Shown here: in pieces, positions 4,587-62,489 of the stretch
How positions within the stretch are numbered: the first letter of the stretch is position 1
Layout of the letters: each line of letters starts with the position of its first letter
Source of the DNA: an uncultured Bacilli bacterium
GTDB lineage: Bacteria; Bacillota_I; Bacilli_A; RF39; UBA660
Length of the DNA stretch: 64,000 nt
Direction of reading: 5' to 3'
NCBI GenBank assembly: GCA_934119965.1
Contig: CAKOTA010000003.1
Span: forward strand, 24,488 to 88,487
Translations under genes and position numbers: made by a program
Notes under the pieces: model-generated
Database searches by the model: none
What the model was told of the DNA's origin: nothing
What the model saw: the letters and a program-made list of their open reading frames with translations, nothing else

Positions 4587-5471
4587 TTATATTTCTTGCA
4601 ATTCATAAGTAGTATTAAAAATTCTCTCATCGCTACAATATGACATTATATATTTATCTTCTTCTTTAGTAATTATTATTCCTATAGTATTATTTTCTTC
4701 TATCGTTTTTATATTTTTATTCACATAATTCATATAGGTTTCTATTTGCCCTATATGTTCTTTTTTTAGCTTTGTTATTTTTAGTTCTACTACAACATAA
4801 CATTTATATTTTATATTATATAAAAGCAAATCAATATAATTATAACTATTTCCTATTTTTATTTTATATTCATTTTCTATGAATGCAAAACCCTCACCTA
4901 ACTCTTTCAAAAAATTATTCATATTTTCTAAGATTAATTGTTGCAACATCTTTTCTTTTATTATTTCTTTATTTGTATTTAATATTATGGGATTTTTTAC
5001 TAAATCTTGTACATCTAATTTATTATCGTTTTTTAATTTTTCTTTTGTTTTTTCATCTAATCTTTCATATTCATTTGATTTTATTTTTTTCCTTAATTCT
5101 CTTTTACTTAAGTGTTTATCTTCGCATACTTTTATATAATAATTGATTTCGTCTATATTTTTTAATGGTAAAAGTTCAATGAAATGACTCCAACTCAATT
5201 GGCCAGCCAATGGCTGACCTTTATCTATTAAATAATAAAATTGACGCATATACTTTAAACTAGTTACTGTATATCCTTTTCCCAATTCATTTGTTAATTT
5301 TTCAGAATATTTTTTTATTATTCCTTCACCATAATTTTTCCCTGCTTCGCTTAACATTTTTCCGACATTGTAATATGTTTGTAAATCGCTTCTATTTTTA
5401 CTGTAATCTTTTACTTTTTTGTATATCTCATTATTGATTAATTCTTGTTTAATAATTTCATAATAATTCAT
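4587..5471 (-). CDS. DUF1016/YhcG-family PD-(D/E)XK nuclease-like protein
   Basis: The N-terminus (MNYYEIIKQEL...YYNVGKMLSEAG) and the C-terminal IDLLLYN...VVVELK (D...ExK) motif fit this family. The start was set at ATG 5471, preceded by AGGAGG. Confidence 0.65.
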   Translation of the reverse strand: MNYYEIIKQELINNEIYKKVKDYSKNRSDLQTYYNVGKMLSEAGKNYGEGIIKKYSEKLTNELGKGYTVTSLKYMRQFYYLIDKGQPLAGQLSWSHFIELLPLKNIDEINYYIKVCEDKHLSKRELRKKIKSNEYERLDEKTKEKLKNDNKLDVQDLVKNPIILNTNKEIIKEKMLQQLILENMNNFLKELGEGFAFIENEYKIKIGNSYNYIDLLLYNIKYKCYVVVELKITKLKKEHIGQIETYMNYVNKNIKTIEENNTIGIIITKEEDKYIMSYCSDERIFNTTYELQEI

Positions 5472-5472
5472 T

Positions 5473-6370
5473 TTAAGCCTCCTGTAATTCATAAGTAGTA
5501 TTAAAAATTCTTTCATCACTACAATATGACATTATGTATTTATTATCTTCTTTAGTAATTATTATTCCTATTGTTTTATCTTGATTTATATTTTTAATAT
5601 TTTTATCAATATAATTCATATAAGTTTCTATTTGTCCTATATGTTCTTTTTTTTAGTTTTGTTATTTTTAGTTCTACTACGACAAAACAATTATAAGTAT
5701 AATTAAATAATAATAAATCTATATAATTATAACTGTTTCCTATTTTTATTTTGTATTCACTTTTTATAAATGAAAAACCATTGCCTAATTGTTCTAAAAA
5801 ATCCTCCATATTTTCCAAAATTAATTGTTGTAACATCTTTTCTTTTATTATTTCTTTATTTGTATTTAATATTATAGGATTTTTTACTAAATCTTGTACC
5901 TCTAATTTATTATCGTTTTTTAATTTTTCTTTTGTTTTTTCATCTAATCTTTCATATTCTTTTGATTTTATTTTCTCTCTTAACTCCCTCACAGATAAAT
6001 TTTGTTCTTCTGATATCATAATGTAGTAATTTAGAATATCCTTACTATCCTTTAAACATAATAATTCGACATAATGACTCCAGTTCAATTTTCCAGACAT
6101 TGTCTGGAAAATTTGATTATTGTATATAAGATAATAAAAATTAAGCATATTATATAACGAACTTTTTGTATATTTCTTATTCACCTCTTCAATTAATTTT
6201 TCAGAATATTTTTTTATTATTCTTTCACCATAATGTTTACCTGCTTCACTTAATATTTTTCCGACATTATAATAAGTTTGTAAATCACTTCTATTTTTAC
6301 TATAATCTTTTACCTTTTTATAAACTTCATTTTTTATTAATTCTTCTTTTATTTCTGTATAATAATCCAT
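5473..6370 (-). pseudogene. Frameshifted tandem paralogue of the DUF1016/YhcG-family gene
   Basis: It is highly similar to 4587..5471. The + strand T-run is 8 nt here (5647-5654) against 7 nt in the intact copy (4761-4767). Removing one base restores ...KKEHIGQIETYMNY...TTYELQEA with a stop at 5473-5475. Confidence 0.6.
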
Positions 6371-11092: not shown

Positions 11093-11155
11093 GAAAAAAA
11101 GAAAACTATTTTAAGTCTTCTTTATTAATCATATATTTCTAAATAAGTAACAATT

Positions 11156-13519
11156 TTATTTATTTCTTAATTTAGCGCCTGTTTTTTCAACTTCTTCAAT
11201 TATTTTATTAAATGAGTTCATAACTTCTTCTTCGGATAAAGTGTGTGTAGGATCACTAAATACTAATTTGAATGCTAAAGATTTTGTATTTGAATCAATA
11301 TTTTCTCCAATATATAAGTCAAACAATTCACAGCTTTTTAATATTTTTCCTCCAGCTTTTTTAATGATTTTTTCTAATTCTTCACAAGTAACATCCTTAT
11401 CAACTATAAATGCTAAATCTTTAGTAGATGCTGGGAATTTACTTATTTCTTTATAAGTCATTCTACTGCTTCTATTAGCTAAAACTTTATCTAAATCTAA
11501 TTCTAAAGCATAGACATCGCCTTTAACTACATTTGGATGTAATTTACCAATAACACCTACTACTTTTCCTTGAAGTTCAATAATTGCACTTTGTCCTGGA
11601 TGAAATTCTTTTGGTAAATTAGAAACAACTAAACGATATCTATTATTATATCCAAGATAATCCATTAACTCTTCTAGTACACCTTTAATTACATAAAAAT
11701 CTACTTTTGTATTTTTTATGTCTAAATAATAATCTCCTGTCATAAGAATAGCTAATTTATTATTTTCTTTGTAGATTCCATCTTCTTCATAGAAACCTTT
11801 TCCCATTTCAAATATACTAATATTTTCTAAATTACGATCTTTATTATATTTATAAATTTCTTTTAATGAATAAAGTAAACTATATCTTAATGTGCTTCTA
11901 TCTTCACTCATTGGATCAGCTAAAGTAATTGGTTCAAAATCTTCAGTAGCAAATTCAAAAACATTATTAGATGGAATTAAAGAGTAACTTAAAGTTTCAT
12001 TTAACCCTAAATCAACTAATTTATTTTTAATTTTTCTTCTTGTTTTATTATAAGTTCCAGTAATAACATTTAAAACTGGTAATTTTCCTTTAATATTGTC
12101 CATTCCATAAATTCTTCCGGCTTCTTCAATTAGATCTTCTTTAATATTAATATCTAATCTTCTAGATGGAACTGTTACTGTTAAAATATCATTTCCTTCT
12201 ACTTTAAATCCTAAAGATTCATATATATCCTTTACAGTATTAGAATCAAGTTCAATTCCTAATACTTTATTAATTTTATCAATACTAATTTCTATTATTT
12301 TATCACTAGCATCAGTTTCGTCATATTTAACCATACCGCCTACTATAGTAGCATCAGCATATTTTTCTAATAAGTGGCAACTTCTTTCGATAGCCATATA
12401 TGTTCTTTTAGGATCTAAACCTTTTTCAAATCTATTTGAAGCTTCACTTCTTAATATTTTTTTAGATGTTTTTCTTACCTTTATACTATCAAAAATAGCT
12501 GATTCTATAATAATATTTTTTGTATCTTCTTCTACTTCGGTAGATAACCCACCCATTACACCAGCAAGGCCTACTGCACCACTATTATTAGCAATTACAA
12601 TATCATCATTTGATAAAGTTCTTTTAATATTATCTAGAGTAGTTAATTCTTCATTATCATTAGCGTCTCTAACTATTAATGTATCGCCTAATCTATCAGC
12701 ATCATAGTAATGTAATGGTTGACCAGTTTCAAGCATTACATAGTTTGAAATATCAACAACATTATTTATTGGTCTAATTCCAGAAGCAATAAGTCTATTT
12801 TTAATGAATTCTGGACTTTCTTTTATTGTAACATTAACAGCTTTTTTTGCTAAAAACAAAGGACAAGATTTAGTTTCTACTTTAACTTTAAATTCATTAT
12901 TAATATCACTATCGTTACTACTATAATCTAATTCAATATCTTTAACTTTCTTTTTATAAATTGCTCCTAGTTCATAGGCCATACCAATTACACTTAATAA
13001 ATCTCCTCTATTAGATGTTAATTCAAAATCAATTACTTCATCATCTAAGCCTAATGATTTAATTGGATCACTACCTACAATACTATCAAGTGGTAATTCA
13101 CAAATACCATTTACATCTTTTTCAGATAAAAATTTATGTTCTAAACCTAATTCTGCTACTGAACATAACATACCATTTGATACTTGTCCGCGAATCATTC
13201 CTTTTTTAATTTCACCGCCTGGTAATTTAGCGCCAGCCAAGGCAACAATTACTTTTATTCCTTTACGGCAGTTTGGAGCTCCACAAACAATATCCAATAT
13301 TTCTTTACCAATATCAACTTTACAAATGTGTAGATGATCACTATCAGGGTGATCAGCACATTCTATTACCTCACCAACTACTAAATTAGTACAATTAATT
13401 AATGGACAAGCTGTATCATATTCATTTCCTACATTTGTCATAGCTTCTGCTATATCTTTTATAGATAAAGATTCGTCTAAATCAATATAATCACTTACAA
13501 ATTTTCTACTTAATTTCAT
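11156..13519 (-). CDS. pheT: Phenylalanine--tRNA ligase beta subunit
   Basis: 787 aa with tRNA-binding, B3/4, B5 and FDX-ACB-like regions. Its start overlaps the pheS stop. Confidence 0.95.
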   Translation of the reverse strand: MKLSRKFVSDYIDLDESLSIKDIAEAMTNVGNEYDTACPLINCTNLVVGEVIECADHPDSDHLHICKVDIGKEILDIVCGAPNCRKGIKVIVALAGAKLPGGEIKKGMIRGQVSNGMLCSVAELGLEHKFLSEKDVNGICELPLDSIVGSDPIKSLGLDDEVIDFELTSNRGDLLSVIGMAYELGAIYKKKVKDIELDYSSNDSDINNEFKVKVETKSCPLFLAKKAVNVTIKESPEFIKNRLIASGIRPINNVVDISNYVMLETGQPLHYYDADRLGDTLIVRDANDNEELTTLDNIKRTLSNDDIVIANNSGAVGLAGVMGGLSTEVEEDTKNIIIESAIFDSIKVRKTSKKILRSEASNRFEKGLDPKRTYMAIERSCHLLEKYADATIVGGMVKYDETDASDKIIEISIDKINKVLGIELDSNTVKDIYESLGFKVEGNDILTVTVPSRRLDINIKEDLIEEAGRIYGMDNIKGKLPVLNVITGTYNKTRRKIKNKLVDLGLNETLSYSLIPSNNVFEFATEDFEPITLADPMSEDRSTLRYSLLYSLKEIYKYNKDRNLENISIFEMGKGFYEEDGIYKENNKLAILMTGDYYLDIKNTKVDFYVIKGVLEELMDYLGYNNRYRLVVSNLPKEFHPGQSAIIELQGKVVGVIGKLHPNVVKGDVYALELDLDKVLANRSSRMTYKEISKFPASTKDLAFIVDKDVTCEELEKIIKKAGGKILKSCELFDLYIGENIDSNTKSLAFKLVFSDPTHTLSEEEVMNSFNKIIEEVEKTGAKLRNK

Positions 13520-14562
13520 TAGTCTTCATCCTTTCTATTAAATTCTTCTAAAAATCTTAAATCATTTCCGTAGATTGTTCTAATATCTGGAATACCATAT
13601 TTAAACATAGCAAATCTATCTATTCCAGTACCAAACGCAAATCCTTGATATTTTTTAGAATCATAGCCACTCATTTCTAAAACATTTGGGTGTACCATTC
13701 CCGCCCCTAATACTTCAATCCAACCTGTTCCTTTACATAAGTTACATCCTTTACCACCACATTTAAAGCAAGTAACATCTACTTCAACTGATGGTTCTGT
13801 AAATGGAAAGTAACTTGGTCTAAATCTAACACTAGTTTTTTCGCCTAATATTTTTTTACAAAATAATTCTAATGTTCCTTTTAAGTCAGCCATTGAAATA
13901 TTTTCATCAATTACTAATCCTTCTATTTGCATAAATTGATGAGAGTGAGTAGCATCTTCATCCCTTCTATATACTTTTCCTGGGCATACTATTCTAATTG
14001 GGCCTTTTTCTTTATTTTCTTCCATAGCTCTTACTTGAGCGGTTGAGGTTTGACTTCTAAGTAACCAAGCATCATATTCATCTTTTAGATAGAATGTATC
14101 TTGAGCATCTCTAGCTGGATGTCCTATTGGTAAGTTTAATTTTTGGAAACAATTTTCATCACTTTCTATTTCTGGACCTTCATATACGGTATATCCCATT
14201 GAAACAAACAAGTCTTCAAAATCTTCTGTTACCCTAGTCATTGGATGTTTACTACCTTTTTTTACTTTTTTACTTGGCAAAGTTATATCTATTTTTTCAC
14301 TTTCTAGTTTTTTATTTAATTCTATATTATGAAATTCTTGTTTTTTTAAAGATAATATATTGTTTATTTCTTCTTTAAATTTATTAACTTTCATTCCATA
14401 TTCTTTTTTTTCTTCAGGATTTAATGTTCCCATAATACTCATTAATTCTGTAACTGGTCCTTTTTTACTAAAATATTTGGTTTCAATTTCACTTAATTCT
14501 TTAGTATTTTTTACATTTTCCAAACAATCTAATATTTCTTTTCTTAATTCTTCAATATTCAT
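13519..14562 (-). CDS. pheS: Phenylalanine--tRNA ligase alpha subunit
   Basis: 347 aa with class II aaRS motifs (FRPSYFPFTEPS, GAGMVHPNVL). Confidence 0.95.
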   Translation of the reverse strand: MNIEELRKEILDCLENVKNTKELSEIETKYFSKKGPVTELMSIMGTLNPEEKKEYGMKVNKFKEEINNILSLKKQEFHNIELNKKLESEKIDITLPSKKVKKGSKHPMTRVTEDFEDLFVSMGYTVYEGPEIESDENCFQKLNLPIGHPARDAQDTFYLKDEYDAWLLRSQTSTAQVRAMEENKEKGPIRIVCPGKVYRRDEDATHSHQFMQIEGLVIDENISMADLKGTLELFCKKILGEKTSVRFRPSYFPFTEPSVEVDVTCFKCGGKGCNLCKGTGWIEVLGAGMVHPNVLEMSGYDSKKYQGFAFGTGIDRFAMFKYGIPDIRTIYGNDLRFLEEFNRKDED

Positions 14563-14571
14563 AATTTCCTC

Positions 14572-15285
14572 CTATATTTTTTTCTTTCTACTTAATTTAT
14601 ATAACATATTAAATGTTATGAAATTATATATATATTTTGTTATTATCTCTTTTTTATTACTTTTAAATACTTGATGTCTAACGTTTTCTAGTATTATTAG
14701 TTCTTTTTTACAATTTAAGTTATCATAAACAAATTTGCTTGAATCTACTGATATTACATTATCAATGCTGCCATGTAATAGTAGTGTTGGGCAAGTTACT
14801 TTTTTGATATTTTTTTTGTTATTATCTGCCAATTTTTTATACTCAATCATTACTGATTTAGGAATTGTAAAAAATTTTTTTATTGCTCCTTCAAATCCTG
14901 TTCCAACCTCTTTATCAACTTTATTAGTTAAAATGTTTTTTAAGTCTTCTTTATTTTGTTTAAAACTTCCAAACTTAAAAGCACTAGATATAAGAACTAA
15001 TTTATCTACCTCTTTATATCTAGAGGCTAAATTAACAGCTAATATAGTTCCCATACTATGAGCTACTATCGTTACTTTTTTATATTTTTTTAGTATTTTT
15101 TTTAATTCTTCTTCTGATTTATCTAACCATTCTTTACCTGTTGACTTTGTTGTTGTATCGTTTTCGTGTCCTGGTAAGGTAAAGGTAAATAATTCTATGT
15201 TAGAATATTTTTTCATTTCGTTTATAAAATACTCATTGTCTTCTTTTTTTGCTGATAAACCATGAATAAACATTACTGCTTTCAA
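14572..15285 (-). CDS. Alpha/beta-hydrolase, carboxylesterase-like
   Basis: 237 aa with FIHGLSA and a nucleophile elbow (AHSMG). The likely TTG start at 15285 is preceded by GGAGA. Confidence 0.6.
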   Translation of the reverse strand: MKAVMFIHGLSAKKEDNEYFINEMKKYSNIELFTFTLPGHENDTTTKSTGKEWLDKSEEELKKILKKYKKVTIVAHSMGTILAVNLASRYKEVDKLVLISSAFKFGSFKQNKEDLKNILTNKVDKEVGTGFEGAIKKFFTIPKSVMIEYKKLADNNKKNIKKVTCPTLLLHGSIDNVISVDSSKFVYDNLNCKKELIILENVRHQVFKSNKKEIITKYIYNFITFNMLYKLSRKKKI

Positions 15286-15300
15286 AAAATCATCTCCAAT

Positions 15301-15495
15301 AAAAAAATCACATCCTATAAGGACGTGATTTACGTGGTACCACCTTAATTTATACTCAAAACTATAACGCGTTACCGTAAATAAGGCTAGAAGGTGAATT
15401 CATAAAATCAAGATTATGTTTACTTTCACCTTTATGTAAACTCTCTAAATAATCTAACATTTACTACTACTTCTTCATCACAGCTTTTAAACATA
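15301..15495 (-). promoter_or_regulatory. T-box leader, Phe specifier (UUC), with terminator
   Basis: On the minus strand I read AGAGAG, GGTGAAAG, GAA-TTC-A (the codon at 15396-15398), the T-box sequence AATTAAGGTGGTACCACG, and a terminator hairpin followed by a T-run (15301-15331). A TTGAAT-17-TATACT promoter lies at 15501-15529. Confidence 0.85.
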
Positions 15496-15521
15496 CAAAT
15501 AGTATATCACATTTTTAATTA

Positions 15522-15818
15522 TTATTCAATTTCATTTGCAATATCATCAAATGTTTTTTCAGTTTTATTAAATTCTATTGGCTCTTCTTTTGACACTTCA
15601 ATTATTTTAGGTATAAAAAGTATTGTATATGTTGTAGCTACCACTAAAAGTAAAAATAATTCACCAAAAATAATTATATTATTTTTCTTTTTTTTATTGG
15701 TAATTTCATTGCTTTTTATTTCAAAATTAATTGATGAAATATCTAAGCCACAATTCATACACATTGTATCATCATTTGATAAAGTATTATTACATTTTGG
15801 ACACACTATTTTTTTCAT
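15522..15818 (-). CDS. Zinc-ribbon membrane protein
   Basis: It has CPKCNN...CMNCG followed by one TM segment. The start was set at ATG 15818 after AGAGGTG. Confidence 0.5.
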   Translation of the reverse strand: MKKIVCPKCNNTLSNDDTMCMNCGLDISSINFEIKSNEITNKKKKNNIIIFGELFLLLVVATTYTILFIPKIIEVSKEEPIEFNKTEKTFDDIANEIE

Positions 15819-15854
15819 AAAGACACCTCTATTATTATTATATAACAAAGGTCT

Positions 15855-16289
15855 TTATTTTTTCAATTGTTTTTGATTATTTTCTGTTTCTTTATTTAAT
15901 TCAAAATTCATATAATTGTATATTTTAATTAATGTCCACTTATCAATCACACCATTTTCTATCAATTCTTTGGAATTTGAATCTATATCTATTTTATTAA
16001 GTACTTCTTCTGTCAAAATATTTTTTAATTTTTCTGTTTCGACTACATATTTTTTATTGAATACATGATTATATGTATTTTTTTCCATATCTGATATTTG
16101 ATATCTATTTTTTTTACATGATTTAAAAGAATCACCTGTTATTACTTCTTCCACGATATCATCATTTTTTAATTCAAATACAAAGTATTGATTAGATATT
16201 GTTTGAATTGGCCCCATACTTCTTCCTAAGTTTTCACATGCGTAAATTTTTCCAATTAATAAATTATTTATTAAATATGTTTCTTTCAT
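15855..16289 (-). CDS. Hypothetical protein
   Basis: The ORF track starts at a TTG at 16370. ATG 16289 has GGGGA upstream, and the region upstream of it carries the tRNA terminator. Confidence 0.45.
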   Translation of the reverse strand: MKETYLINNLLIGKIYACENLGRSMGPIQTISNQYFVFELKNDDIVEEVITGDSFKSCKKNRYQISDMEKNTYNHVFNKKYVVETEKLKNILTEEVLNKIDIDSNSKELIENGVIDKWTLIKIYNYMNFELNKETENNQKQLKK

Positions 16290-16365
16290 TATTATCATCC
16301 CCTTGTGGCTGTATATTATAGCACGTATTTTTTTTATGTCAAATAATGGGAAATATGACTTACTT

Positions 16366-16398
16366 CCCAAAAAATAAAATCAACATTACTGTTGATTT
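16366..16398 (-). terminator. Rho-independent terminator after the tRNA pair
   Basis: On the minus strand there is a hairpin (AATCAAC/GTTGATT) followed by a T-run. Confidence 0.55.
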
Positions 16399-16409
16399 AC
16401 TGCTTTAAA

Positions 16410-16486
16410 TGGTGACCAGTACGAGATTCGAACTCGTGAATGCTGCCGTGAAAGGGCAGTGTGTTAAGCCGCTTCACCAACTGGCC
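16410..16486 (-). tRNA. tRNA-Glu (anticodon UUC), CCA encoded
   Basis: The reverse complement reads GGCCAGTTGGTGAAGCGG...CTGCC-CTTTCAC-GGCAG...GGTTCGAATC...GGTCACCA, which folds as a cloverleaf by eye. Confidence 0.9.
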
Positions 16487-16493
16487 AAAAAAA

Positions 16494-16569
16494 TGGCGCC
16501 TAATGTAGGACTCGAACCTACGACCTATCGGTTAACAGCCGAGTGCTCTACCAACTGAGCTAATTAGGC
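16494..16569 (-). tRNA. tRNA-Asn (anticodon GUU), CCA encoded
   Basis: The reverse complement reads GCCTAATTAGCTCAGTTGGTAGAGC...GGCTGTTAACCG...GGTTCGAGTCC...ATTAGGCGCCA. Confidence 0.9.
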
Positions 16570-16595
16570 ACATCTTAATTGCTTAAGACTTTTTA

Positions 16596-16624
16596 ATTAT
16601 ATAATATATTTTATTTTTATGCAA
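16596..16624 (-). promoter_or_regulatory. Sigma-A-type promoter for the tRNA-Asn/tRNA-Glu pair
   Basis: TTGCAT-17-TATAAT on the minus strand, about 27 nt upstream of tRNA-Asn. Confidence 0.6.
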
Positions 16625-16749
16625 TACCTTTTATGAAATTTTTTATTTTTTTAATAAAATAATATATACCTCATAGAAAAATGAGGCATATATTAATTCA
16701 TATTTATAAGTATGAAACTTTTTTTCAAAGTTCATAATTCTTGTTTTTT

Positions 16750-16781
16750 ATAAAAAAAATAGGTAAAAAATTATACCTATT
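16750..16781 (-). terminator. Rho-independent terminator after ORF 16830..17294
   Basis: A hairpin (AATAGGTA/TACCTATT) followed by a T-run on the minus strand. Confidence 0.6.
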
Positions 16782-27595: not shown

Positions 27596-27802
27596 AAAAA
27601 AATCACATCCTAATTATAAGGACGTGATTTACGTGGTACCACCTTAATTTATACTCAAAACTATAACGCGTTACCGTTTTTATCTTATCCATAAAACACA
27701 ACTTGAAAGTGATCTAGATTTAAGTTTATTTATTCCTTTTCACCAAACAGGAACTCTCTTTTCAAATAATTAAATAAATCTCGTCTTTCGCACTTGTTTA
27801 TC
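27596..27802 (-). promoter_or_regulatory. T-box leader upstream of ileS (candidate AUC specifier) with terminator
   Basis: On the minus strand I read AGAGAG, GGTGAAAAG, a candidate AG-ATC-A specifier (27711-27713), AATTAAGGTGGTACCACG, and a terminator with a T-run. A TTGAAC-17-TATAAT promoter lies at 27809-27837. Confidence 0.8.
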
Positions 27803-40424: not shown

Positions 40425-40523
40425 AATATCAACTCTCTTTTGTTTTATTATAACATATTTTAAAGTATTTTATTTAATAATTTATAATTCATTTAAATTA
40501 TAACAAAAATATTATAATATATA

Positions 40524-40551
40524 TTGATACACGAATATATGTTGCTATAAT
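40524..40551 (+). promoter_or_regulatory. Promoter of small-peptide gene, copy A (TTGATA-16-TGcTATAAT, extended -10)
   Basis: Read directly from the sequence. Copy B has the same elements at about 40957-40985 with 17-nt spacing. Confidence 0.6.
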
Positions 40552-40614
40552 ACTTATAGGAACATTTAATAGTTGGGTGATTTGCCAATCTTCTAACGAA
40601 GGGAGACTGGTAGC

Positions 40615-40698
40615 ATGAATAAGAAAGATTTTTTAATCTTATCCTTAATCATTATTATCATTCTATTAGTATTTTTACTATTTATAGTTTTAATATAA
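40615..40698 (+). CDS. 27-aa hydrophobic peptide, candidate type I toxin (copy A)
   Basis: The sequence is MNKKDFLILSLIIIIILLVFLLFIVLI, with GAAGGGAG upstream. Confidence 0.55.
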   Translation: MNKKDFLILSLIIIIILLVFLLFIVLI

Positions 40699-40702
40699 TA
40701 AG

Positions 40703-40810
40703 AAAAAATCACCTAACTCAGCAATGATTTAGGTGAAACCAAATTTATGAGGCAACACTCAATATGCGATATTGAATGTTCCTTTTTTATTTTATGTAAT
40801 GTCGCTTGAC
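40703..40810 (-). ncRNA. Predicted convergent antisense RNA (candidate antitoxin, copy A)
   Basis: A minus-strand promoter (TTGTAA-17-TATTAT) lies at 40817-40845. A hairpin (TCACCTAA/TTAGGTGA, 40709-40736) is followed by TTTTTT on the minus strand. The RNA would overlap the sense 3' UTR. Confidence 0.4.
40751..40788 (+). terminator. Rho-independent terminator of the peptide mRNA (copy A)
   Basis: GGCAACACTCAATAT-GCG-ATATTGAATGTTCC followed by TTTTTT. Confidence 0.6.
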
Positions 40811-41047
40811 ATATTCATAATATCATATTAATTAATTTTTTACAAGTTCTTCTTATGTGGATTTTTTTAATTTCACATAATTTTCTTTATATTTTAAGTA
40901 TTTTATTTAATAATTTATAATCCATTTAAATTATAACAAAAATATTATAATATATATTGATGCACGAATATATGTTTGCTATAATATTTATAGGAACATT
41001 TAATAGTTGGGTGATTTGCCAATCTTCTAACGAAGGGAGGCGATAGT

Positions 41048-41131
41048 ATGAATAAGAAAGATTTTTTAATCTTATCCTTAATCATTATTATCATTCTATT
41101 AGTATTTTTACTATTTATAGTTTTAATATAA
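41048..41131 (+). CDS. 27-aa hydrophobic peptide, candidate type I toxin (copy B, identical peptide)
   Basis: Same ORF as copy A, with GAAGGGAGG upstream. Confidence 0.55.
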   Translation: MNKKDFLILSLIIIIILLVFLLFIVLI

Positions 41132-41242
41132 TAATAAATCACCTAACCCAGCAATGATTTAGGTGACTGTCTAACTAACAAGGCAACACTCAACACGCTA
41201 ACATTAAATGTTCCTTTTTTATTTTATGTAATGTCGTTTGAC
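41131..41242 (-). ncRNA. Predicted convergent antisense RNA (copy B)
   Basis: The TTGTAA-17-TATTAT promoter is conserved at 41249-41277 and the hairpin at 41139-41166. The T-run is weaker than in copy A. Confidence 0.3.
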
Positions 41243-41373
41243 ATATTCATAATACCATATTAATCAATTTTTTACAAGTTCTTCTTATGTGGTTTTTTTA
41301 ATTTCGCATAATTTTCTTTATATTTTAAGTATTTTATTGTTTAATTTTTAAATAATAATAAAGGTGATTATTT

Positions 41374-47170: not shown

Positions 47171-47198
47171 AAGAAAAAAATGCAAAGATGACTTTACA
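47171..47198 (-). terminator. Rho-independent terminator after the FGE-domain gene
   Basis: A hairpin (TGTAAAG/CTTTGCA) followed by a T-run on the minus strand. Confidence 0.6.
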
Positions 47199-47242
47199 CT
47201 TTTTTTAATCATTATTTCTAGTTTTAAAATGAAGTTTGTATT

Positions 47243-48601
47243 TTAGCCTTTTAGAACTAGACGGAAGCCAACGACGCTGTCAGCAGCACCTTTGCTCCTA
47301 TCGAAGTCGAACTGACCTGCAATAACACCATGGTAGCAATTGCCGCCACGGCGGAACCAAGGGTTATAAGAGTCAACGAAAATCGAGAAGTCAGCGTACC
47401 AACTATTATGATATCTTGAATTGTTATCCCCATCAAGGTAATTTTGAAATGGTCCCATTTCTCCTGTCGCATCTCCTAAGATTCGATATTGATAACTTGT
47501 TTGTGTACTTGATGCATTATAAACATCAAAGTATTTTGAATCATAATCGGTTGGTGTTAATCCACTTGAGCCTGGTTTCCCACTTACGTATCCAGCCACA
47601 TATTCCCAAGCACCACCACTCATATCATAAATCCCTGTTATATTTCCAGTTGTACTTGCTAGATAGCCTATCTCTGTATTATATGGCTTATTATATTTAT
47701 CTCCGTCACCAGTTTTTCCTTGATATATGTTTTGATTTGTTGATGGTAAAGCACTATATCCAGTCTTATATGAACTATTATTATTGATATTTACTTCTAC
47801 ACCTATTCCATATTTTGAATGTGATAGGTATGCTACTGCTCCCCATTCTGTATTCTTCATCATATGACTATCTAATTCTCTTTTATAATTATAACTTGTT
47901 AAAAAGATATTTCCTACTGTTATATTTCTCCAACTATAAACATTTGGCTTTATTATTACTTTACTTGAATCATTACTATTTACTTGTGCTGTTGCTGTAC
48001 TAGTTGCTCCATTATATCCCGTTTCAAATTTTCCTACCCAAAATCCATTACTATTAAATGTTGTAAATGCCGGATGTGTTAACCACTCTCCATTATTACT
48101 TCCTGTACTTGCTGAAACATCTTTTGTTTCAAATTCTATTTCTATTGAATGTGCTTTCTTTATTGCTGTTCCTGTATTCCATAATTTATATCTGAATCTT
48201 GGTATCCATACAAAATATGATTCAATTGAACTGTCTGGTATTGTATCTCCTACTTTATATGTTCCACTTGATACTATTACTGCATTAGCCCATTCTTTAT
48301 TACAATAGTTATACCATTTACTATTTGTGTCTGCATATTTTACTGTTCCATCATTACTTATTGTTACTGGTATTAAATCTCCTTTTATTTCTGGAGTTGC
48401 CACATTACTTGTACAGCCTCCCATATTCATATTATTATATAATTCATCTAAGGCTGTATTTACATCTGTTGTTGTTCCATCTTTTTTATTATATACTACT
48501 TCACTTGCTTGATATTTATTTGCTGCATATAGTGTTCCACTTATACCTAATATCATTGCTATTACTGCTACAAATAATCTGCTTTTTATTATTTTCTTCA
48601 T
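47243..48601 (-). CDS. Secreted/membrane-anchored protein with a C-terminal FGE-sulfatase (SUMF1/C-type-lectin-fold) domain
   Basis: It has an N-terminal signal anchor. Domain motifs include GIYDMSGGAWEYV, WFRRGG and a terminal VGFRLV. Confidence 0.7.
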   Translation of the reverse strand: MKKIIKSRLFVAVIAMILGISGTLYAANKYQASEVVYNKKDGTTTDVNTALDELYNNMNMGGCTSNVATPEIKGDLIPVTISNDGTVKYADTNSKWYNYCNKEWANAVIVSSGTYKVGDTIPDSSIESYFVWIPRFRYKLWNTGTAIKKAHSIEIEFETKDVSASTGSNNGEWLTHPAFTTFNSNGFWVGKFETGYNGATSTATAQVNSNDSSKVIIKPNVYSWRNITVGNIFLTSYNYKRELDSHMMKNTEWGAVAYLSHSKYGIGVEVNINNNSSYKTGYSALPSTNQNIYQGKTGDGDKYNKPYNTEIGYLASTTGNITGIYDMSGGAWEYVAGYVSGKPGSSGLTPTDYDSKYFDVYNASSTQTSYQYRILGDATGEMGPFQNYLDGDNNSRYHNSWYADFSIFVDSYNPWFRRGGNCYHGVIAGQFDFDRSKGAADSVVGFRLVLKG

Positions 48602-48624
48602 TCATAATTCCTACTTTCTATATT

Positions 48625-48653
48625 TAGTATACCCCCTCCCAGCATACTTTTCA
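48625..48653 (-). promoter_or_regulatory. Promoter of the FGE-domain gene (TTGAAA-17-TATACT)
   Basis: Read on the minus strand about 25 nt upstream of the ATG. The spacer contains GGGAGGGGG. Confidence 0.45.
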
Positions 48654-48720
48654 AGCAGAAATTTTGTTCGATTTATACAAATTTTTAAATTAATATATAC
48701 AACTTTTGTCAAATTAAAAT

Positions 48721-48752: not shown

Positions 48753-49658
48753 TTATAATTTTTCTATTTCTTCTTTTGTTAATCCAGTTGCTTTAGATAT
48801 AGTATCAATATCTGTACCAATATTTTTAAAATTTCTTGCTATTTCTATACTTTTATTTACAGATCCTTGTTCAATTCCTTGTTTAAGACCTTGCTTAATA
48901 CCGCTTTGTTTTGCTTCTTCTATTAATGTATTGTATTCTAGTTCTTCTCTTGATTTTTCAAAATATAATGCTACTACATCTTCATCACTTGAATATTTCA
49001 TTGTTTCATCCATTAATTTTGATTTTGTTTCTTTTCCCATCAAATCATCCCCTAAATATTTTCTAAATTCTTCTTCTGTTTTTGCTGTTAAAACTGTACA
49101 CCATCTTGCTAATTTATTATTGTATTCATTATAACAAATTTTTCTTCCTATTACCATATCTAAATTATCTATTTCAAATTTTTCACTTAATATTTTCCCT
49201 TCTTCATTTCTTAGATAATATTTATCTATTAATTTGTTATTTTGATTTTTTAAATCCACATTTAGATTGATTTGAATTGTTTTTTTTATTTTACTATAAT
49301 TATTATCTCCATATCCTAAACTTCTTGAATGAACATTACAAGCATATACTATATTTCTTTCCTTTTTTCCATCTGAATGTTTATTATTTAATTCTATATT
49401 TATTGTTTCATTTTCTAGTTCTAATAATAAATCTATTTGTTTATTTTTGGCTTTTTTACTTTCTAATTCTAGTTCTCTTGGTAATATTTTTAATCTTCCT
49501 TTTATATCATTAATATCCATATCAAAGTAGCAAGCTAAAAAGCTTTCTAAGATATCTATATTTTCTTTTTTAGTAAATATTGCTTCAAATACAAAATCAA
49601 AGTTTAATGGTATTATTTCTCCTTCTTTTAATTCAGTTTTTCTTATATCTTGTTTCAT
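48753..49658 (-). CDS. Rpn-family recombination-promoting nuclease / putative transposase (PD-(D/E)XK_2)
   Basis: 301 aa with the N-terminal block IPLNFDFVFEAIF...ILESFL and IDLLLELENETINIELN, typical of the family. Confidence 0.6.
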   Translation of the reverse strand: MKQDIRKTELKEGEIIPLNFDFVFEAIFTKKENIDILESFLACYFDMDINDIKGRLKILPRELELESKKAKNKQIDLLLELENETINIELNNKHSDGKKERNIVYACNVHSRSLGYGDNNYSKIKKTIQINLNVDLKNQNNKLIDKYYLRNEEGKILSEKFEIDNLDMVIGRKICYNEYNNKLARWCTVLTAKTEEEFRKYLGDDLMGKETKSKLMDETMKYSSDEDVVALYFEKSREELEYNTLIEEAKQSGIKQGLKQGIEQGSVNKSIEIARNFKNIGTDIDTISKATGLTKEEIEKL

Positions 49659-59304: not shown

Positions 59305-60948
59305 TTAATCTATTACATATGGATTTTGTAATGTACCATTACCTGATGTAACAGTAGTAGCAATATTTACCACTATTACTGGTCTTATTGCTAATTCATC
59401 AGAGATATTATTATCACTAACATACCCTGAGGCTTTAAGATTATCAGACAAAATTGTGGTATTATACCCTGTTATATAATATGCATTTGTTTCATTTGTA
59501 GTTTTATTAAGCACCCAATAATCTTTTGTTTCTGATATTGACGCACTTTGACTAGATAACATTTCACCTATTCTAATTAATCCTACTTTTGCTTTTATTT
59601 GACCATCTCTATTGTTTAATATGTCAATATATTTTTCTCCACCTATAAATCCTGTTCCTTGATACCAATCAGAATTTACAATTTTTTTTGAATTACTTAA
59701 CCAATCCAATACTTCATTATTCAAAAATTTTCCTATTCCTGATGAGACATCAAAACCAGTACTTGTTCCATACATAGTTGATGAATCATAGTAACCATCA
59801 TATATTAATTTTGTTCCCGTTGAATTTTTACTTACTACTCTATATATTTTATCATTCAAAGTTACATATTCACCACTAGTTGCGATTTTATTCAATTTTC
59901 CTGTTTGATCATTTATATCTTGACTCAATATATATGGATTAGCAATTGAGCCGTCACCACTATTAATAACTACATAGGGACTTATATTTATAACCGGTCT
60001 CACTCCTGCATAGGTATTAGCTCCCATATGGTTATATTTATTTTGAAGAATACTATTAGGAATAGTAGCATTATATGGTGTTAAAGTCCAAAAATGATCA
60101 TTAGTCCCTAAATAATATGTTGAATTTGTTATTGTTTCACTTAATGTAAATTCATCTGCACTTATCAATCCTACTTTTGCAGTTATTAATTTTCCACCCG
60201 TACAATCAGTTCTATTATATGGTCCAACGCTCTGATTAATACACCAATTACTATCTTGAATAATAGCATTTTTTTCACTACTTAGGTTACCTAGAAAATA
60301 ATCATTTAACCAATCTTTTAAATATCCTTCACTATCATAATTTAGTGTTGCAGATTCTTTTGCCCAAGCAACTGTTCCAACACTTTCTTGTGTAATTAAT
60401 CTAATTGTTCCATCTTCATTTAACCCCATTATTCGCCATAAAAAACCATTATACCAAACATAGTTATTTGTTTGAATTCCTTTTAAATATGTTCCATTCA
60501 TGTAATTATAATTTCCATAGGAATTGTTGTCAAGTAATTCTTGAGTAACTTTATTTATGTAAAAAGGTTCAAAATGTTTTTCTAATAGTTTATATTTATA
60601 TTCATTGTCATCATTCATAAATAATTCTACTGTATAATCTTCTTCTTTTACATTTTTTTTATTTTTAGGATCTGTAATTGTAGCTTTTAAATATCCAGAT
60701 TCTAATAATTCCGAAAAATATACATAAACTTTGCTTGAATTATAGTTTAAGGCTGGATATTTATTGATATTTTTTTGAACATATGCTTCAGTTGATAAAA
60801 ATATATCACTCAAAAATCTTTCATATTCATTTTCTCTCGCTTTTTTATAAACATTTGTTATTTCTGGAAAGACAATTAGAAAAATAATTGTCAAAACTGA
60901 TAAAACTACCAACATTTCTACTAAAGTGAAGCCCTTTTTATTCTTCAT
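59305..60948 (-). CDS. Prepilin-type protein with a large C-terminal two-module domain
   Basis: It begins MKNKKGFTLVEMLVVLSVLTIIFL. The pilin-like ~125 aa are paralogous to 58862..59227. Two modules follow, ending GVRPVINIS...SGDGSIANPYIL and AIRPVIVVN...SGNGTLQNPYVID. Confidence 0.7.
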   Translation of the reverse strand: MKNKKGFTLVEMLVVLSVLTIIFLIVFPEITNVYKKARENEYERFLSDIFLSTEAYVQKNINKYPALNYNSSKVYVYFSELLESGYLKATITDPKNKKNVKEEDYTVELFMNDDNEYKYKLLEKHFEPFYINKVTQELLDNNSYGNYNYMNGTYLKGIQTNNYVWYNGFLWRIMGLNEDGTIRLITQESVGTVAWAKESATLNYDSEGYLKDWLNDYFLGNLSSEKNAIIQDSNWCINQSVGPYNRTDCTGGKLITAKVGLISADEFTLSETITNSTYYLGTNDHFWTLTPYNATIPNSILQNKYNHMGANTYAGVRPVINISPYVVINSGDGSIANPYILSQDINDQTGKLNKIATSGEYVTLNDKIYRVVSKNSTGTKLIYDGYYDSSTMYGTSTGFDVSSGIGKFLNNEVLDWLSNSKKIVNSDWYQGTGFIGGEKYIDILNNRDGQIKAKVGLIRIGEMLSSQSASISETKDYWVLNKTTNETNAYYITGYNTTILSDNLKASGYVSDNNISDELAIRPVIVVNIATTVTSGNGTLQNPYVID

Positions 60949-61088: not shown

Positions 61089-62489
61089 ATGAACAAAAGT
61101 ATTCGTACTATATTTATGGTTTTGTTTTTACTTGTTCTAATTATTTGTAGTTTTCTTATTTCAAAAAAGAATCCAGATATTAAGAAAGATGAATCAAGTA
61201 TAAATTTTAAAACTTCTTATAATAAAAATAATACTGTTGATATAGTTGTTGAAACTAATGACAAAGACATCCAATATTCATTCGATAATGGAAAAACATG
61301 GCAAAAAGAAAATTCTTTTGTTGCTACTAAAAATGGAACTTATAATATCAAAATTAAGGATAGTAATGGTATTATAAAATCAACAAAATGTATTGTAAAT
61401 AAAATAGATGATGAAGGACCTGAATTATCTATAAATTTACCTCAGGAAATAACAGTTGGTGAAGAAATAAATTTAGCTGATTATGCAAAAATAACAAATA
61501 ATGATAAATTATCTGGAAATATTGTTATAACACCTAATAAAATAGATACTTCTACAAAGAACGACTATTATATTACTTATTCAGCCACTGATATTTATGG
61601 AAATACATCAACTAAAGAGGTAAAAATTAGAGTCGTAGATAAAGTAAATAATTCTGTCACAACAATATTTGGTAGCACTCTAAAACCAGCTGATGATAAA
61701 ACTTATTATAGATATAGAACTAAAAAAACTGTTACATATGATTGTAACGAATATGATTGTAGTTATTTGGATGTTTCTACTAAAGAAGTCGCTAATGTAA
61801 AATATAATAATCCAGATTGTCCTAATGGTGGAGCATATATAAATAATCCATGTCCTATAGGTAGTAGTTGTACAGCAAATATGGTATCAAGTAATAATTC
61901 AAAAGGAAATATTTGTTATAGCCGTAGTTACATATATGGTAAAAATTCATCAACAAATACAGGAAAAGAAAAAACTGAATGTACTGATGGTGAGATTAAA
62001 ATAGGTGATTATTGTCATAAAATTATGGCGATTGGAACTTATCCTGAAGGATGTACTGATAGTTCATGTGTTGAATTTCCTAGTGGTCCTTGTAATGGTG
62101 ATGATGGTCCTGAAATTAATACACCTTGTCCAATTGGAAAACAATGTGTAACAGTAATGACTAATACTTATAAGAGATATCAAAATTATTGTTATAATGT
62201 TTCGTATATTTATAATTATTCTTCGAATAATGCTTATGATAAATATGGTAATAAAGTTGTTTGTGATAGTGACGAAATTAAGATAGGTAACTATTGCCAC
62301 AAAATTATTGAAAAAGGTTCCTACTATTGTAATTCTAATGAAGAACTAAAAGATGGTTACTGTTATTCAAAAATTATAAAATCTTGTTCTAATAGTTGTA
62401 AAAAAGATGTTTGGAGTGAGTGGAGTGATTGGTCTACAATTCCAGTTAGCCCATCTCTTAATGTTGATGTTGAAACGAAATCCAATTAA
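61089..62489 (+). CDS. Signal-anchored Cys-rich surface protein with an Ig-like domain
   Basis: An N-terminal TM segment and an Ig-like segment (DDEGPELS...ITYSATDIYGNTSTKEVKIRVVD). There are two ~95-aa Cys-rich modules and a C-terminal WSEWSDWS. Confidence 0.55.
   Translation: MNKSIRTIFMVLFLLVLIICSFLISKKNPDIKKDESSINFKTSYNKNNTVDIVVETNDKDIQYSFDNGKTWQKENSFVATKNGTYNIKIKDSNGIIKSTKCIVNKIDDEGPELSINLPQEITVGEEINLADYAKITNNDKLSGNIVITPNKIDTSTKNDYYITYSATDIYGNTSTKEVKIRVVDKVNNSVTTIFGSTLKPADDKTYYRYRTKKTVTYDCNEYDCSYLDVSTKEVANVKYNNPDCPNGGAYINNPCPIGSSCTANMVSSNNSKGNICYSRSYIYGKNSSTNTGKEKTECTDGEIKIGDYCHKIMAIGTYPEGCTDSSCVEFPSGPCNGDDGPEINTPCPIGKQCVTVMTNTYKRYQNYCYNVSYIYNYSSNNAYDKYGNKVVCDSDEIKIGNYCHKIIEKGSYYCNSNEELKDGYCYSKIIKSCSNSCKKDVWSEWSDWSTIPVSPSLNVDVETKSN

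What the first reader, a model, noticed from the sequence alone, without database searches (positions are those of the whole stretch)
47243..47410. GC-rich, adenine-poor 3' end of the FGE-sulfatase-domain gene: DGR variable-region-like signature without a visible DGR
**Seen in sequence:**
- In the last ~150 nt of the CDS (47246-47395) I hand-count about 76 G+C, roughly 51%.
- Only about 27 coding-strand adenines occur there, roughly 18%.
- The rest of this gene and neighbouring genes are about 18-35% G+C, with an A-rich coding strand.
- Codons in the patch are mostly NNC/NNT (tac gac ttc tgc agc gtc ggc cgc ...).
- The patch encodes the extreme C-terminus ...WFRRGGNCYHGVIAGQFDFDRSKGAADSVVGFRLVLKG.

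**Established knowledge:** in diversity-generating retroelements, the variable region usually lies at the C-terminal end of a C-type-lectin/FGE-sulfatase-fold target. Adenine-specific mutagenesis depletes A relative to the template.

**Inference:** this may be a remote or orphan DGR target, or a relic of one. Alternatively it is a recombination patch from a higher-GC donor. No template repeat, avd or reverse transcriptase is present in this window.
Basis: partly seen in the sequence, partly recalled or inferred. Interest (0 to 1): 0.65.

Follow-up and report, generated by a model that had tools for sequence, protein, structure and literature searches.

The report
Retroelement-written variable tip, template unseen
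The odd GC-rich, adenine-poor end of this surface-protein gene is the variable region of a diversity-generating retroelement (DGR) target; relatives carry the full mutagenic cassette beside the gene, but this copy has none nearby and looks static, so it is a new member of a known kind.

Summary
Window 47246-47395 is 50.7% G+C with 27 coding-strand adenines, in a 24.9% G+C window; only two tRNA genes are as GC-rich.

The patch (codons 402-450, 47252-47398) matches, in position and scaffold, the VR/TR repeat of DGRs in related uncultured gut Bacilli. There, 21 cassettes have the layout target(VR)-TR-MutS-like-Avd-RT. Their TR/VR pairs differ at 309 template adenines against 16 other sites. Their VRs have the same composition as this patch (G+C 0.50-0.62, A 0.12-0.18).

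So the patch was written by adenine-mutagenic retrohoming, not imported from a high-GC donor.

No TR, Avd or RT lies in the window, in 10 kb beyond each end, or beside two paralogues attributed to the organism. No cognate TR was found in any collection searched; the best has 16 non-adenine mismatches.

The VR is identical in five further assemblies from five samples, although the same gene underwent two recombination swaps. It lacks the strong hairpin that follows most cassette VRs.

Most likely it is an orphan or rarely refreshed non-adjacent target. A live remote target is not excluded. Interest is moderate to low.

The parts
47243..48601 (-). Target gene, 452 aa. It has an N-terminal hydrophobic signal/anchor and a C-terminal FGE-type C-type-lectin-like domain. 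It belongs to a very large family (at least 8000 database proteins) from uncultured gut Bacilli.
   Evidence: ORF; homologues. Pfam FGE-sulfatase scores E=0.03 for this protein, but 28 of 74 family members match, best E=2e-6. The best solved-structure hit by sequence is 5VF4 = TaqVP, a DGR variable protein, at E=0.04. An AF2 model was too poor to use (pLDDT 45).
47252..47398 (-). Variable region (VR), codons 402-450: YADFSIFVDSYNPWFRRGGNCYHGVIAGQFDFDRSKGAADSVVGFRLVL. This is the GC-rich, A-poor patch.
   Evidence: TRs of relatives align from residue 400-402 to residue 450. The non-scaffold codons are all NNY and can be reached from AAY by changes at the two A positions. Composition lies inside the range of 21 cassette VRs.
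47240..47251 (-). Last two codons, stop codon and 3 nt beyond (AAA GGC TAA AAT). This is the tail of TR/VR homology in some relatives (GCAG[G/A]CTAAAAT in L019 and L015).
47225..47245 (-). Weak hairpin TAAAAT-ACAAACTTC-ATTTTA (6 A/T pairs, 9-nt loop). It sits where most cassette VRs carry a perfect hairpin of 8-13 bp. It lies inside an imperfect 12-bp inverted repeat, 47218-47260.
   Evidence: 16 of 21 cassette-linked VRs have a perfect stem of 8 bp or more at this offset.
47223..47238 (-). 16-mer CAAACTTCATTTTAAA. It is identical to sequence just downstream of the TR in locus L122. Its origin is ambiguous: TR spacer, or VR flank with the hairpin deleted.
   Evidence: 0 of 200 shuffles reach the score. 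However, AACTTCATTT also follows the hairpin in the VR flank of L020.
47174..47202 (-). Terminator-like hairpin followed by a T-run (GTGTAAAG-TCAT-CTTTGCAT, then TTTTTT).
47560..47822 (-). Gene-conversion tract within the lectin domain. This is a second, DGR-independent way in which the gene varies.
   Evidence: All 40 differences between the window and contig L001 over 21.4 kb lie here. The window's version equals that of paralogue P0004/P0243.

Best explanation
The patch is the variable region (VR) of a diversity-generating-retroelement target.

SHOWN in relatives. A cassette with the order target(VR)-TR-MutS-like-Avd-RT is present. The TR is a ~150-nt copy of the gene's 3' end. In it the ligand-contacting codons are AAY, and the scaffold codons avoid adenine.

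FROM ESTABLISHED DGR BIOLOGY. The RT copies the TR RNA into cDNA and misincorporates opposite adenines. The cDNA then replaces the VR.

INFERRED for this gene.
- Its last 49 codons were written in that way. This explains three features at once: G+C twice the genome's, A at 17%, and NNY at every variable codon.
- The cassette that wrote it is not in the window, so this is a non-adjacent copy, one of several paralogues in the genome.
- My committed reading is that it is now static: an orphan, or at most a rarely refreshed target. Its VR does not vary among assemblies, it lacks the strong post-VR hairpin, and no cognate TR could be found.

The protein itself is most likely a surface-anchored ligand-binding lectin. 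This part is inferred only.
For: 1. Homology of the patch to TR/VR. A TR-specific pattern found 32 loci in Bacilli MAGs. They translate to YADNSNFVDSSNPWFNRGGNYNNGVLAGQFNFNRNTG..N.NIG.RLVL. They align to window residues 400-450.

2. These are real DGRs.
- Layout is target-TR-MutS_I-bAvd-RT(YMDD).
- Pfam gives RVT_1 3e-16, bAvd 9e-22, MutS_I 4e-9.
- NCBIfam gives DivGenRetAVD 3e-20.
- The RT carries IGNFTSQ.
- 21 TR/VR pairs show 309 adenine-site mismatches against 16 others.

3. Composition. Cassette TRs have G+C 0.49 and A 0.245. Cassette VRs have G+C 0.56 (0.50-0.62) and A 0.147 (0.12-0.18), inside loci of 24-35% G+C. The window VR has 0.50 and 0.17.

4. The family's hypervariable columns equal the TR's AAY codons. 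Within 90% clusters of cassette-linked relatives, 9 of 11, 10 of 13 and 11 of 14 differences fall in the last 52 aa.

5. Non-adjacent.
- No RT, Avd, MutS-like gene or TR in the 64 kb.
- None 10 kb beyond either end.
- None next to paralogues L119 and L005.
- The site after pheT, which holds the cassette in syntenic relative L118, is empty here.

6. Static.
- The VR is identical in L001, L002, L003 and L120 (DNA compared) and in the window's own NCBI/ENA record (P0241, the identical protein). The same gene meanwhile acquired a 260-bp internal conversion tract and a 5'-end swap.
- Only two VR alleles were seen in the two clusters nearest the window lineage.
- Only a 6-bp A/T hairpin follows the VR, where 16 of 21 cassette VRs have 8-13 bp.
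- Every TR found has at least 16 non-adenine mismatches to this VR, against 0-3 in 20 of the 21 cognate pairs and 6 in one.
- Paralogue VRs attributed to the same organism (L119, from the same metagenome sample; L005, from another sample) are further AT-decayed, at G+C 0.41.
Against: - No cognate TR or RT for this VR was found anywhere, so the DGR origin rests on homology and composition, not on a TR/VR pair from this genome.
- The genome beyond about 113 kb attributed to this organism could not be examined. MAGs often lose TR-bearing contigs, and many TR loci found here sit at contig ends.
- The assemblies that share the VR are nearly clonal: 0 differences outside the gene in 21 kb. VR identity therefore says little about long-term stasis. 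Consensus contigs also hide minority variants.
- VR G+C and scaffold are as intact as in active VRs. Three remote GC-rich VRs in L004 also lack the canonical hairpin.
- The lectin fold of this protein is supported only weakly.
Confidence: 0.55

Rival explanations
1. Live remote target. The origin is the same, but a DGR cassette elsewhere in this genome still rewrites this VR in trans, as in Treponema and Legionella-type cellular DGRs with targets more than 100 kb from the RT.
For: - VR composition and scaffold cannot be told apart from active cassette VRs: G+C 0.50 against 0.51 in L118.
- This VR is fresher than the paralogue VRs, which are at 0.41.
- Remote targets are documented for non-phage DGRs (PMC5758913).
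- This RT clade and TR type are absent from viral contigs, so the lineage is cellular.
- In L004, three GC-rich VRs share scaffold codons with no RT within 10 kb.
Against: - The VR is identical in the five further assemblies.
- The hairpin is weak.
- No cognate TR was found in genome, metagenome, viral, phage or plasmid collections.
- No RT was listed on contigs known from this organism: none of the 120 hits listed in each of two RT searches sits on a contig of a matching length.
Confidence: 0.32
2. Second-hand VR. The patch was written by a DGR in a different, cassette-linked paralogue. It reached this locus by ordinary homologous gene conversion between paralogues, not by retrohoming into this gene.
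For: - The gene is visibly mosaic. It has a 260-bp tract identical to paralogue P0004/P0243, and 5'-end swaps.
- The identical VR sits on two different backbones, P0241 and P0245.
- A PDDEXK_2/Rpn-like gene lies directly upstream.
Against: No donor paralogue with this VR at a cassette has been seen. The reading is not exclusive of the two above.
Confidence: 0.1
3. A horizontally acquired or recombined patch from a higher-GC organism, unrelated to DGRs.
For: Only the raw G+C jump.
Against: - The closest sequences to the patch are TRs and VRs inside genomes of 24-35% G+C.
- The jump coincides with the TR boundary.
- Adenine avoidance and NNY codons are not explained by a donor's G+C.
- No phage or plasmid match was found.
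Confidence: 0.02
4. Chance, or amino-acid or codon selection unrelated to retrohoming.
For: None beyond the fact that Gly/Arg/Phe-rich motifs raise G+C.
Against: - Synonymous choices flip inside the patch: TTC 6 of 6 against 1 of 11; GGC/GGT against GGA; GAC 4 of 5 against 3 of 20; A3 8% against 51%.
- z=4.8.
Confidence: 0.01

Closest known systems
Cellular (non-phage) DGRs with MutS-like (MSL) plus Avd accessory genes: 'Architecture D' of Wu et al. 2018 (PMC5758913), which includes the Legionella DGR
   Same: Relatives of this gene carry target-TR-MSL-Avd-RT cassettes, with adenine-specific TR/VR differences and an FGE-type lectin target whose VR lies at the extreme C-terminus.
   Different: In the window itself none of TR, MSL, Avd or RT is present. 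Only the written product (the VR) is there.
Remote or non-adjacent DGR targets (Treponema denticola TvpA paralogues; 29 targets more than 100 kb from the RT in Wu et al. 2018)
   Same: A VR-bearing paralogue sits away from any cassette, in a lineage whose DGRs are not phage-borne.
   Different: Known remote targets are defined by an adenine-only match to a TR in the same genome. Here that TR has not been found, and the VR shows no variation among assemblies.
DGR variable proteins of the FGE-type C-type-lectin fold (Mtd, TvpA, TaqVP/5VF4)
   Same: The VR carries the C-terminal ...W.RGG....G..AG.F.F.R..G......GFRLV motif. The best solved-structure hit by sequence is TaqVP, and it covers the start of TaqVP's lectin domain.
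   Different: Sequence similarity is marginal (E=0.04; Pfam E=0.03). No reliable model was obtained. Some family members carry type IV prepilin N-termini or sit beside a T2SSE ATPase. No paper in the searched library holds both 'diversity-generating retroelement' and 'prepilin'.

Membership tests
Diversity-generating retroelement (system) | Reverse transcriptase of the DGR clade ([ILV]GxxxSQ, YxDD) in the element | tested here: not met
   No RT in the window: YxDD scan and tblastn with two cassette RTs, all E>2. None within 10 kb beyond either end. The rest of the genome could not be tested. Relatives do have it.
Diversity-generating retroelement (system) | Template repeat: a near-copy of the VR differing only at template adenines | tested here: not met
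   No repeat of the patch in the window. A pattern that matches the VR and, if its non-variable codons are unchanged, its TR found nothing in genome, viral or metagenome collections. The closest TRs have 16-18 non-adenine mismatches.
Diversity-generating retroelement (system) | Accessory gene (Avd, MSL or HRDC) | tested here: not met
   tblastn with Avd and MutS-like proteins of L118 and L122 gives only chance hits.
DGR target / variable region | Homology of the region to TR/VR repeats of bona fide DGRs, in register, at the 3' end of the ORF | tested here: met
   TRs of 30 or more loci align to residues 400-450. Those loci are demonstrated DGRs.
DGR target / variable region | Variable codons derivable from AAY by substitutions at adenines only; adenine-poor scaffold | tested here: met
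   All codons at family-variable positions are NNY. Scaffold A3 is 8% against 51% in the rest of the gene.
DGR target / variable region | Hypervariability confined to the VR among close relatives or strains | tested here: not met
   For this lineage, the VR is identical in L001-L003, L120 and P0241; only two VR alleles were seen in the two nearest 90% clusters. It is met for cassette-linked relatives.
DGR target / variable region | Cis element downstream of the VR (IMH plus hairpin/cruciform) | tested here: inconclusive
   Only a 6-bp A/T stem with a 9-nt loop is present, where 16 of 21 cassette VRs have perfect stems of 8-13 bp. The requirement is known from the Bordetella phage DGR (my knowledge) and is not shown for this clade.
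FGE-sulfatase / C-type-lectin fold (PF03781) | Significant profile match or structural match | tested here: inconclusive
   - This protein scores E=0.03, below the gathering score.
- 28 of 74 family members match, best E=2e-6.
- The solved-structure sequence hit TaqVP scores E=0.04.
- A profile search of solved structures found nothing.
- The AF2 model has pLDDT 45.

The most novel reading that the evidence does not exclude
This is a live trans-target in a lineage of AT-rich gut Bacilli. One cellular DGR would serve a dispersed set of lectin paralogues, some of them type-IV-pilin-like or next to a T2SSE ATPase. The paralogues additionally shuffle 0.25-0.5-kb segments by gene conversion. That would be a two-tier diversification system: retrohoming plus segmental conversion. 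Paralogue VRs would be caught at different stages of refresh and AT-decay. A sub-variant is that the 16-mer shared with the L122 TR's downstream flank is a footprint of cDNA that carried spacer sequence into a new target.
Probability: 0.25. Interest if true: 0.5.

Novelty: new member of a known kind. Interest (0 to 1): 0.33.

Why it matters
The case shows that, in a very AT-rich genome, a short GC-rich, adenine-poor, NNY-coded 3' end is enough to flag a DGR-written variable region when the retroelement is not in view.

That is practically useful for fragmented MAGs. The TR/VR repeat breaks assemblies, and the cassette is often lost.

The work also documents three things:
- A very large, essentially unannotated family of DGR-diversified lectins in uncultured gut Bacilli.
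- A series of paralogue VRs that appear to be at different stages of decay.
- Gene conversion acting on the same genes.

None of this changes what is known about how DGRs work.

Tried and rejected
1. Cognate TR hunt, all negative.
- An IUPAC pattern that keeps the VR's A's and allows X-or-A in the variable codons was scanned over genome, viral and metagenome contigs: 0 hits, not even the VR itself.
- blastn against phages and plasmids: none.
- A family TR pattern in viral contigs: none.
- RT-anchored loci from viral contigs (80 loci, 50% identity or less) have no VR-like DNA.
- RT-anchored loci from metagenome contigs (55 loci) added no closer TR.
- Two RT protein searches gave thousands of hits. 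None of the 120 listed in each sits on a contig of a length matching those known from this organism.
- The RT closest to L118's RT (P0171, 88%) is on a 1.3-kb contig from another sample.
- P0176 (L122-124) gave the TR most similar in scaffold, but it is still non-cognate.

2. Walking 10 kb beyond both window ends found housekeeping genes only.

4. Structure. The AF2 model came from a 63-sequence alignment whose members are all at least 60% identical to the query. It gave pLDDT 45, so no fold search was run. A profile search of solved structures was empty.

5. The idea that the VR flank derives from the TR spacer was examined. The 16/16 match to the L122 TR flank is significant on its own. However, window-flank scores against TR flanks and against VR flanks do not differ overall (Mann-Whitney p=0.40). 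The core motif also occurs in a VR flank. This is left as ambiguous.

6. The high-GC donor and chance explanations were rejected.

Full report
OBSERVATION

The gene is ORF 47243-48601 on the minus strand, 452 aa. Window 47246-47395 has 50.7% G+C and, on the coding strand, 27 A, 36 C, 40 G and 47 T.

The window as a whole is 24.9% G+C. For 150-nt windows the mean is 0.249 and the sd 0.053. Only two stretches reach 0.44. One is this patch. The other, 16373-16599, is tRNA-Glu plus tRNA-Asn.

Inside the gene the break is sharp and is a synonymous-site effect. Codons 402-450 have GC3 0.51 and A3 0.08. Codons 1-401 have 0.135 and 0.51 (Fisher p about 1e-9). Examples are TTC 6 of 6 against 1 of 11, and GGC/GGT against GGA.

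WHAT THE PATCH IS HOMOLOGOUS TO

The protein has at least 8000 homologues, nearly all unnamed metagenomic proteins of 450-470 aa.

Aligned, their C-termini show a fixed scaffold with hypervariable columns: WYxDxSxFVDSSxPWFxRGGxYxxGVLAGQFxFxRxTGxxxxxxGFRLVL.

I wrote a TR-specific DNA pattern with AAY at two variable codons and scanned one genome per GTDB species. It returned 32 loci, nearly all labelled as uncultured Bacilli or other Bacillota MAGs (rabbit, Hadza, mouse, rumen, Firmicutes CAG:582), plus three labelled Muribaculaceae.

These loci translate to YADNSNFVDSSNPWFNRGGNYNNGVLAGQFNFNRNTG..N.NIG.RLVL. Asparagine sits at the family's variable columns. The upstream sequence has no coding continuity with the target gene.

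They lie 300-440 nt downstream of a homologue of the window gene. They are followed by a MutS-domain-I protein of about 120 aa, a bAvd protein and a YMDD reverse transcriptase of about 350 aa.
- Pfam gives RVT_1 3e-16, bAvd 9e-22 and MutS_I 4e-9.
- NCBIfam gives DivGenRetAVD 3e-20.
- The RT has the DGR-type IGNFTSQ motif.

Across 21 distinct TR/VR pairs, 309 mismatches are at template adenines and 16 are elsewhere. These are canonical DGRs of the MSL+Avd architecture described by Wu et al. 2018 (PMC5758913).

The TRs align to the window protein from residue 400-402 to 450. That is exactly the patch, 47252-47398.

WHY IT IS GC-RICH AND A-POOR

In those cassettes, TRs average G+C 0.49 and A 0.245. 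VRs average G+C 0.56 (0.50-0.62) and A 0.147 (0.12-0.18). The loci themselves are 24-35% G+C.

The window VR has G+C 0.50 and A 0.17. The signature therefore comes from two sources:
- A template whose scaffold codons avoid adenine, so that structural residues are not mutagenised.
- Conversion of AAY adenines to G, T or C.

A high-GC donor is not needed. The nearest sequences all sit in equally AT-rich genomes.

Every non-scaffold codon of the window VR is NNY and can be reached from AAY. Examples are AAC to TTC, CGC, TAC, GAC, AGC or GTC, and AAT to ATT, CAT or GAT.

WHERE THE RETROELEMENT IS

It is not here.
- There is no repeat of the patch in the window.
- There is no YxDD RT. The two motif hits are in a 1035-aa ORF that lines up with the isoleucyl-tRNA synthetase gene and in an unrelated 191-aa ORF.
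- tblastn finds no trace of RT, Avd or MutS-like proteins.

The window protein is identical to a database entry on a 108,770-nt NCBI/ENA contig.

Ten kb beyond each window end holds only housekeeping genes.

A relative at 25% G+C, L118, is syntenic with window 11130-16765 (tRNAs to pheS-pheT). It has its cassette right after pheT. The window has other genes there.

Two paralogues attributed to the same organism also have no cassette nearby. They are L119, from the same metagenome sample as L002, and L005.

Every search for a cognate TR failed. The closest TRs (L015/L019 and L122) still have 16-18 non-adenine mismatches. Cognate pairs have 0-3 in 20 of 21 cases and 6 in one.

Both the RT clade and the TR type are absent from viral contigs. 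This is a cellular DGR lineage, the kind for which remote targets are documented.

IS IT STILL BEING REWRITTEN?

Evidence for stasis:
- The last 210 nt are identical in L001, L002 and L003.
- The Hadza contig L120 is identical from 46085 to about 48200.
- The identical VR sits on two different protein backbones, P0241 and P0245.
- Meanwhile the gene acquired a 263-bp conversion tract. All 40 differences from L001 over 21.4 kb lie in 47560-47822. It also acquired a 5'-end swap.
- Cassette-linked relatives behave differently: each member of a 90% cluster has its own VR.
- 16 of 21 cassette VRs are followed at once by a perfect hairpin of 8-13 bp. The window has only TAAAAT-9 nt-ATTTTA.
- Paralogue VRs attributed to the same organism have drifted to G+C 0.41, with C-to-T changes at third positions. 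VRs in this lineage can therefore sit unrefreshed.

Evidence against over-reading this:
- The assemblies are nearly clonal.
- Contigs hide minority variants.
- TR-bearing contigs are often lost from MAGs.
- The VR is compositionally as fresh as an active one.

I put about 0.9 on 'DGR-written VR'. Within that, I put about 0.55 on 'now orphan or rarely refreshed' and about 0.3 on 'live remote target'.

THE PROTEIN

It has an N-terminal hydrophobic anchor.

Evidence for an FGE-type lectin fold is weak for this protein but consistent across the family:
- Pfam E=0.03 here; 28 of 74 members match, best 2e-6.
- The best solved-structure hit by sequence is TaqVP, a DGR variable protein.
- The AF2 model failed, with pLDDT 45.

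Some relatives carry prepilin N-termini or lie in tandem arrays beside a T2SSE ATPase.

Function is inferred: a surface ligand-binding protein whose binding face is the VR.

VERDICT

The finding is a new member of a known kind, not a new mechanism. The open question is whether this copy is a fossil or a live remote target.

Noticed in passing
window 47560-47822: All 40 nucleotide differences between the window and the otherwise identical 21.4-kb contig L001 fall in this 263-bp tract inside the target gene. The window's version equals paralogue P0004/P0243. This is segmental gene conversion between paralogues.
   Followed up: partly
window 48200-48670; loci L119, L120: The 5' end of the gene (signal/anchor and first domain) is swapped in the Hadza contig L120 and in paralogue L119. 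The central 700 nt of the paralogue are almost identical to the window gene (5 differences).
   Followed up: partly
window 48753-49658 (-): A PDDEXK_2 (Rpn/YhgA-like 'transposase') gene lies directly upstream of the mosaic target gene. In L120 the alignment to the window ends at 48670, just short of this gene.
   Followed up: no
window 40459-41351; L118 9390-9557: Two to three tandem units of about 433 bp, 92-98% identical. Each carries a small hydrophobic ORF (MNKKDFLILSLIIIIILLVFLLFIVLI) behind a ribosome-binding site. A copy also lies in relative L118.
   Followed up: no
window 15316-15378 and 27615-27677: An exact 63-nt repeat upstream (minus strand) of two ORFs that look like pheS and ileS. 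Its reverse complement contains GGTGGTACCACG, so these are probably T-box leaders sharing an identical segment.
   Followed up: no
window 59305-60948 (-) and 61089-62489 (+): A 547-aa protein with a ComGC-like type IV prepilin N-terminus lies next to a 466-aa Bact_surface_Ig-like protein. Some homologues of the DGR target carry these same domains.
   Followed up: partly
locus L004 7164-14891: Five tandem paralogues of the target lie downstream of a T2SSE ATPase. Three have GC-rich VRs (0.51-0.55) that share scaffold codons and two have AT-rich VRs (0.39). No RT lies within 10 kb and no cognate TR was found.
   Followed up: partly
window 47223-47238; L122 about 510-540: The 16-mer CAAACTTCATTTTAAA just after the VR is identical to sequence just downstream of the TR in L122. 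It could be spacer-derived cDNA, or a VR flank that lost its hairpin. This is ambiguous.
   Followed up: partly
loci L006-L037, L118, L122 (TR flanks): Sequence downstream of the TRs is conserved across species: GACTAAAAT.ATAAAAG...ACTTC[AG]T...TTTAAGGA/TACGGAC...TTATTTTAGAAA. CTAAAATA and TATTTTAG could pair at long range. This is probably the structured 3' part of the DGR RNA.
   Followed up: no
window 4587-6370: Two tandem DUF1016/YhcG (PD-(D/E)XK) paralogues, 79-88% identical at the DNA level.
   Followed up: no
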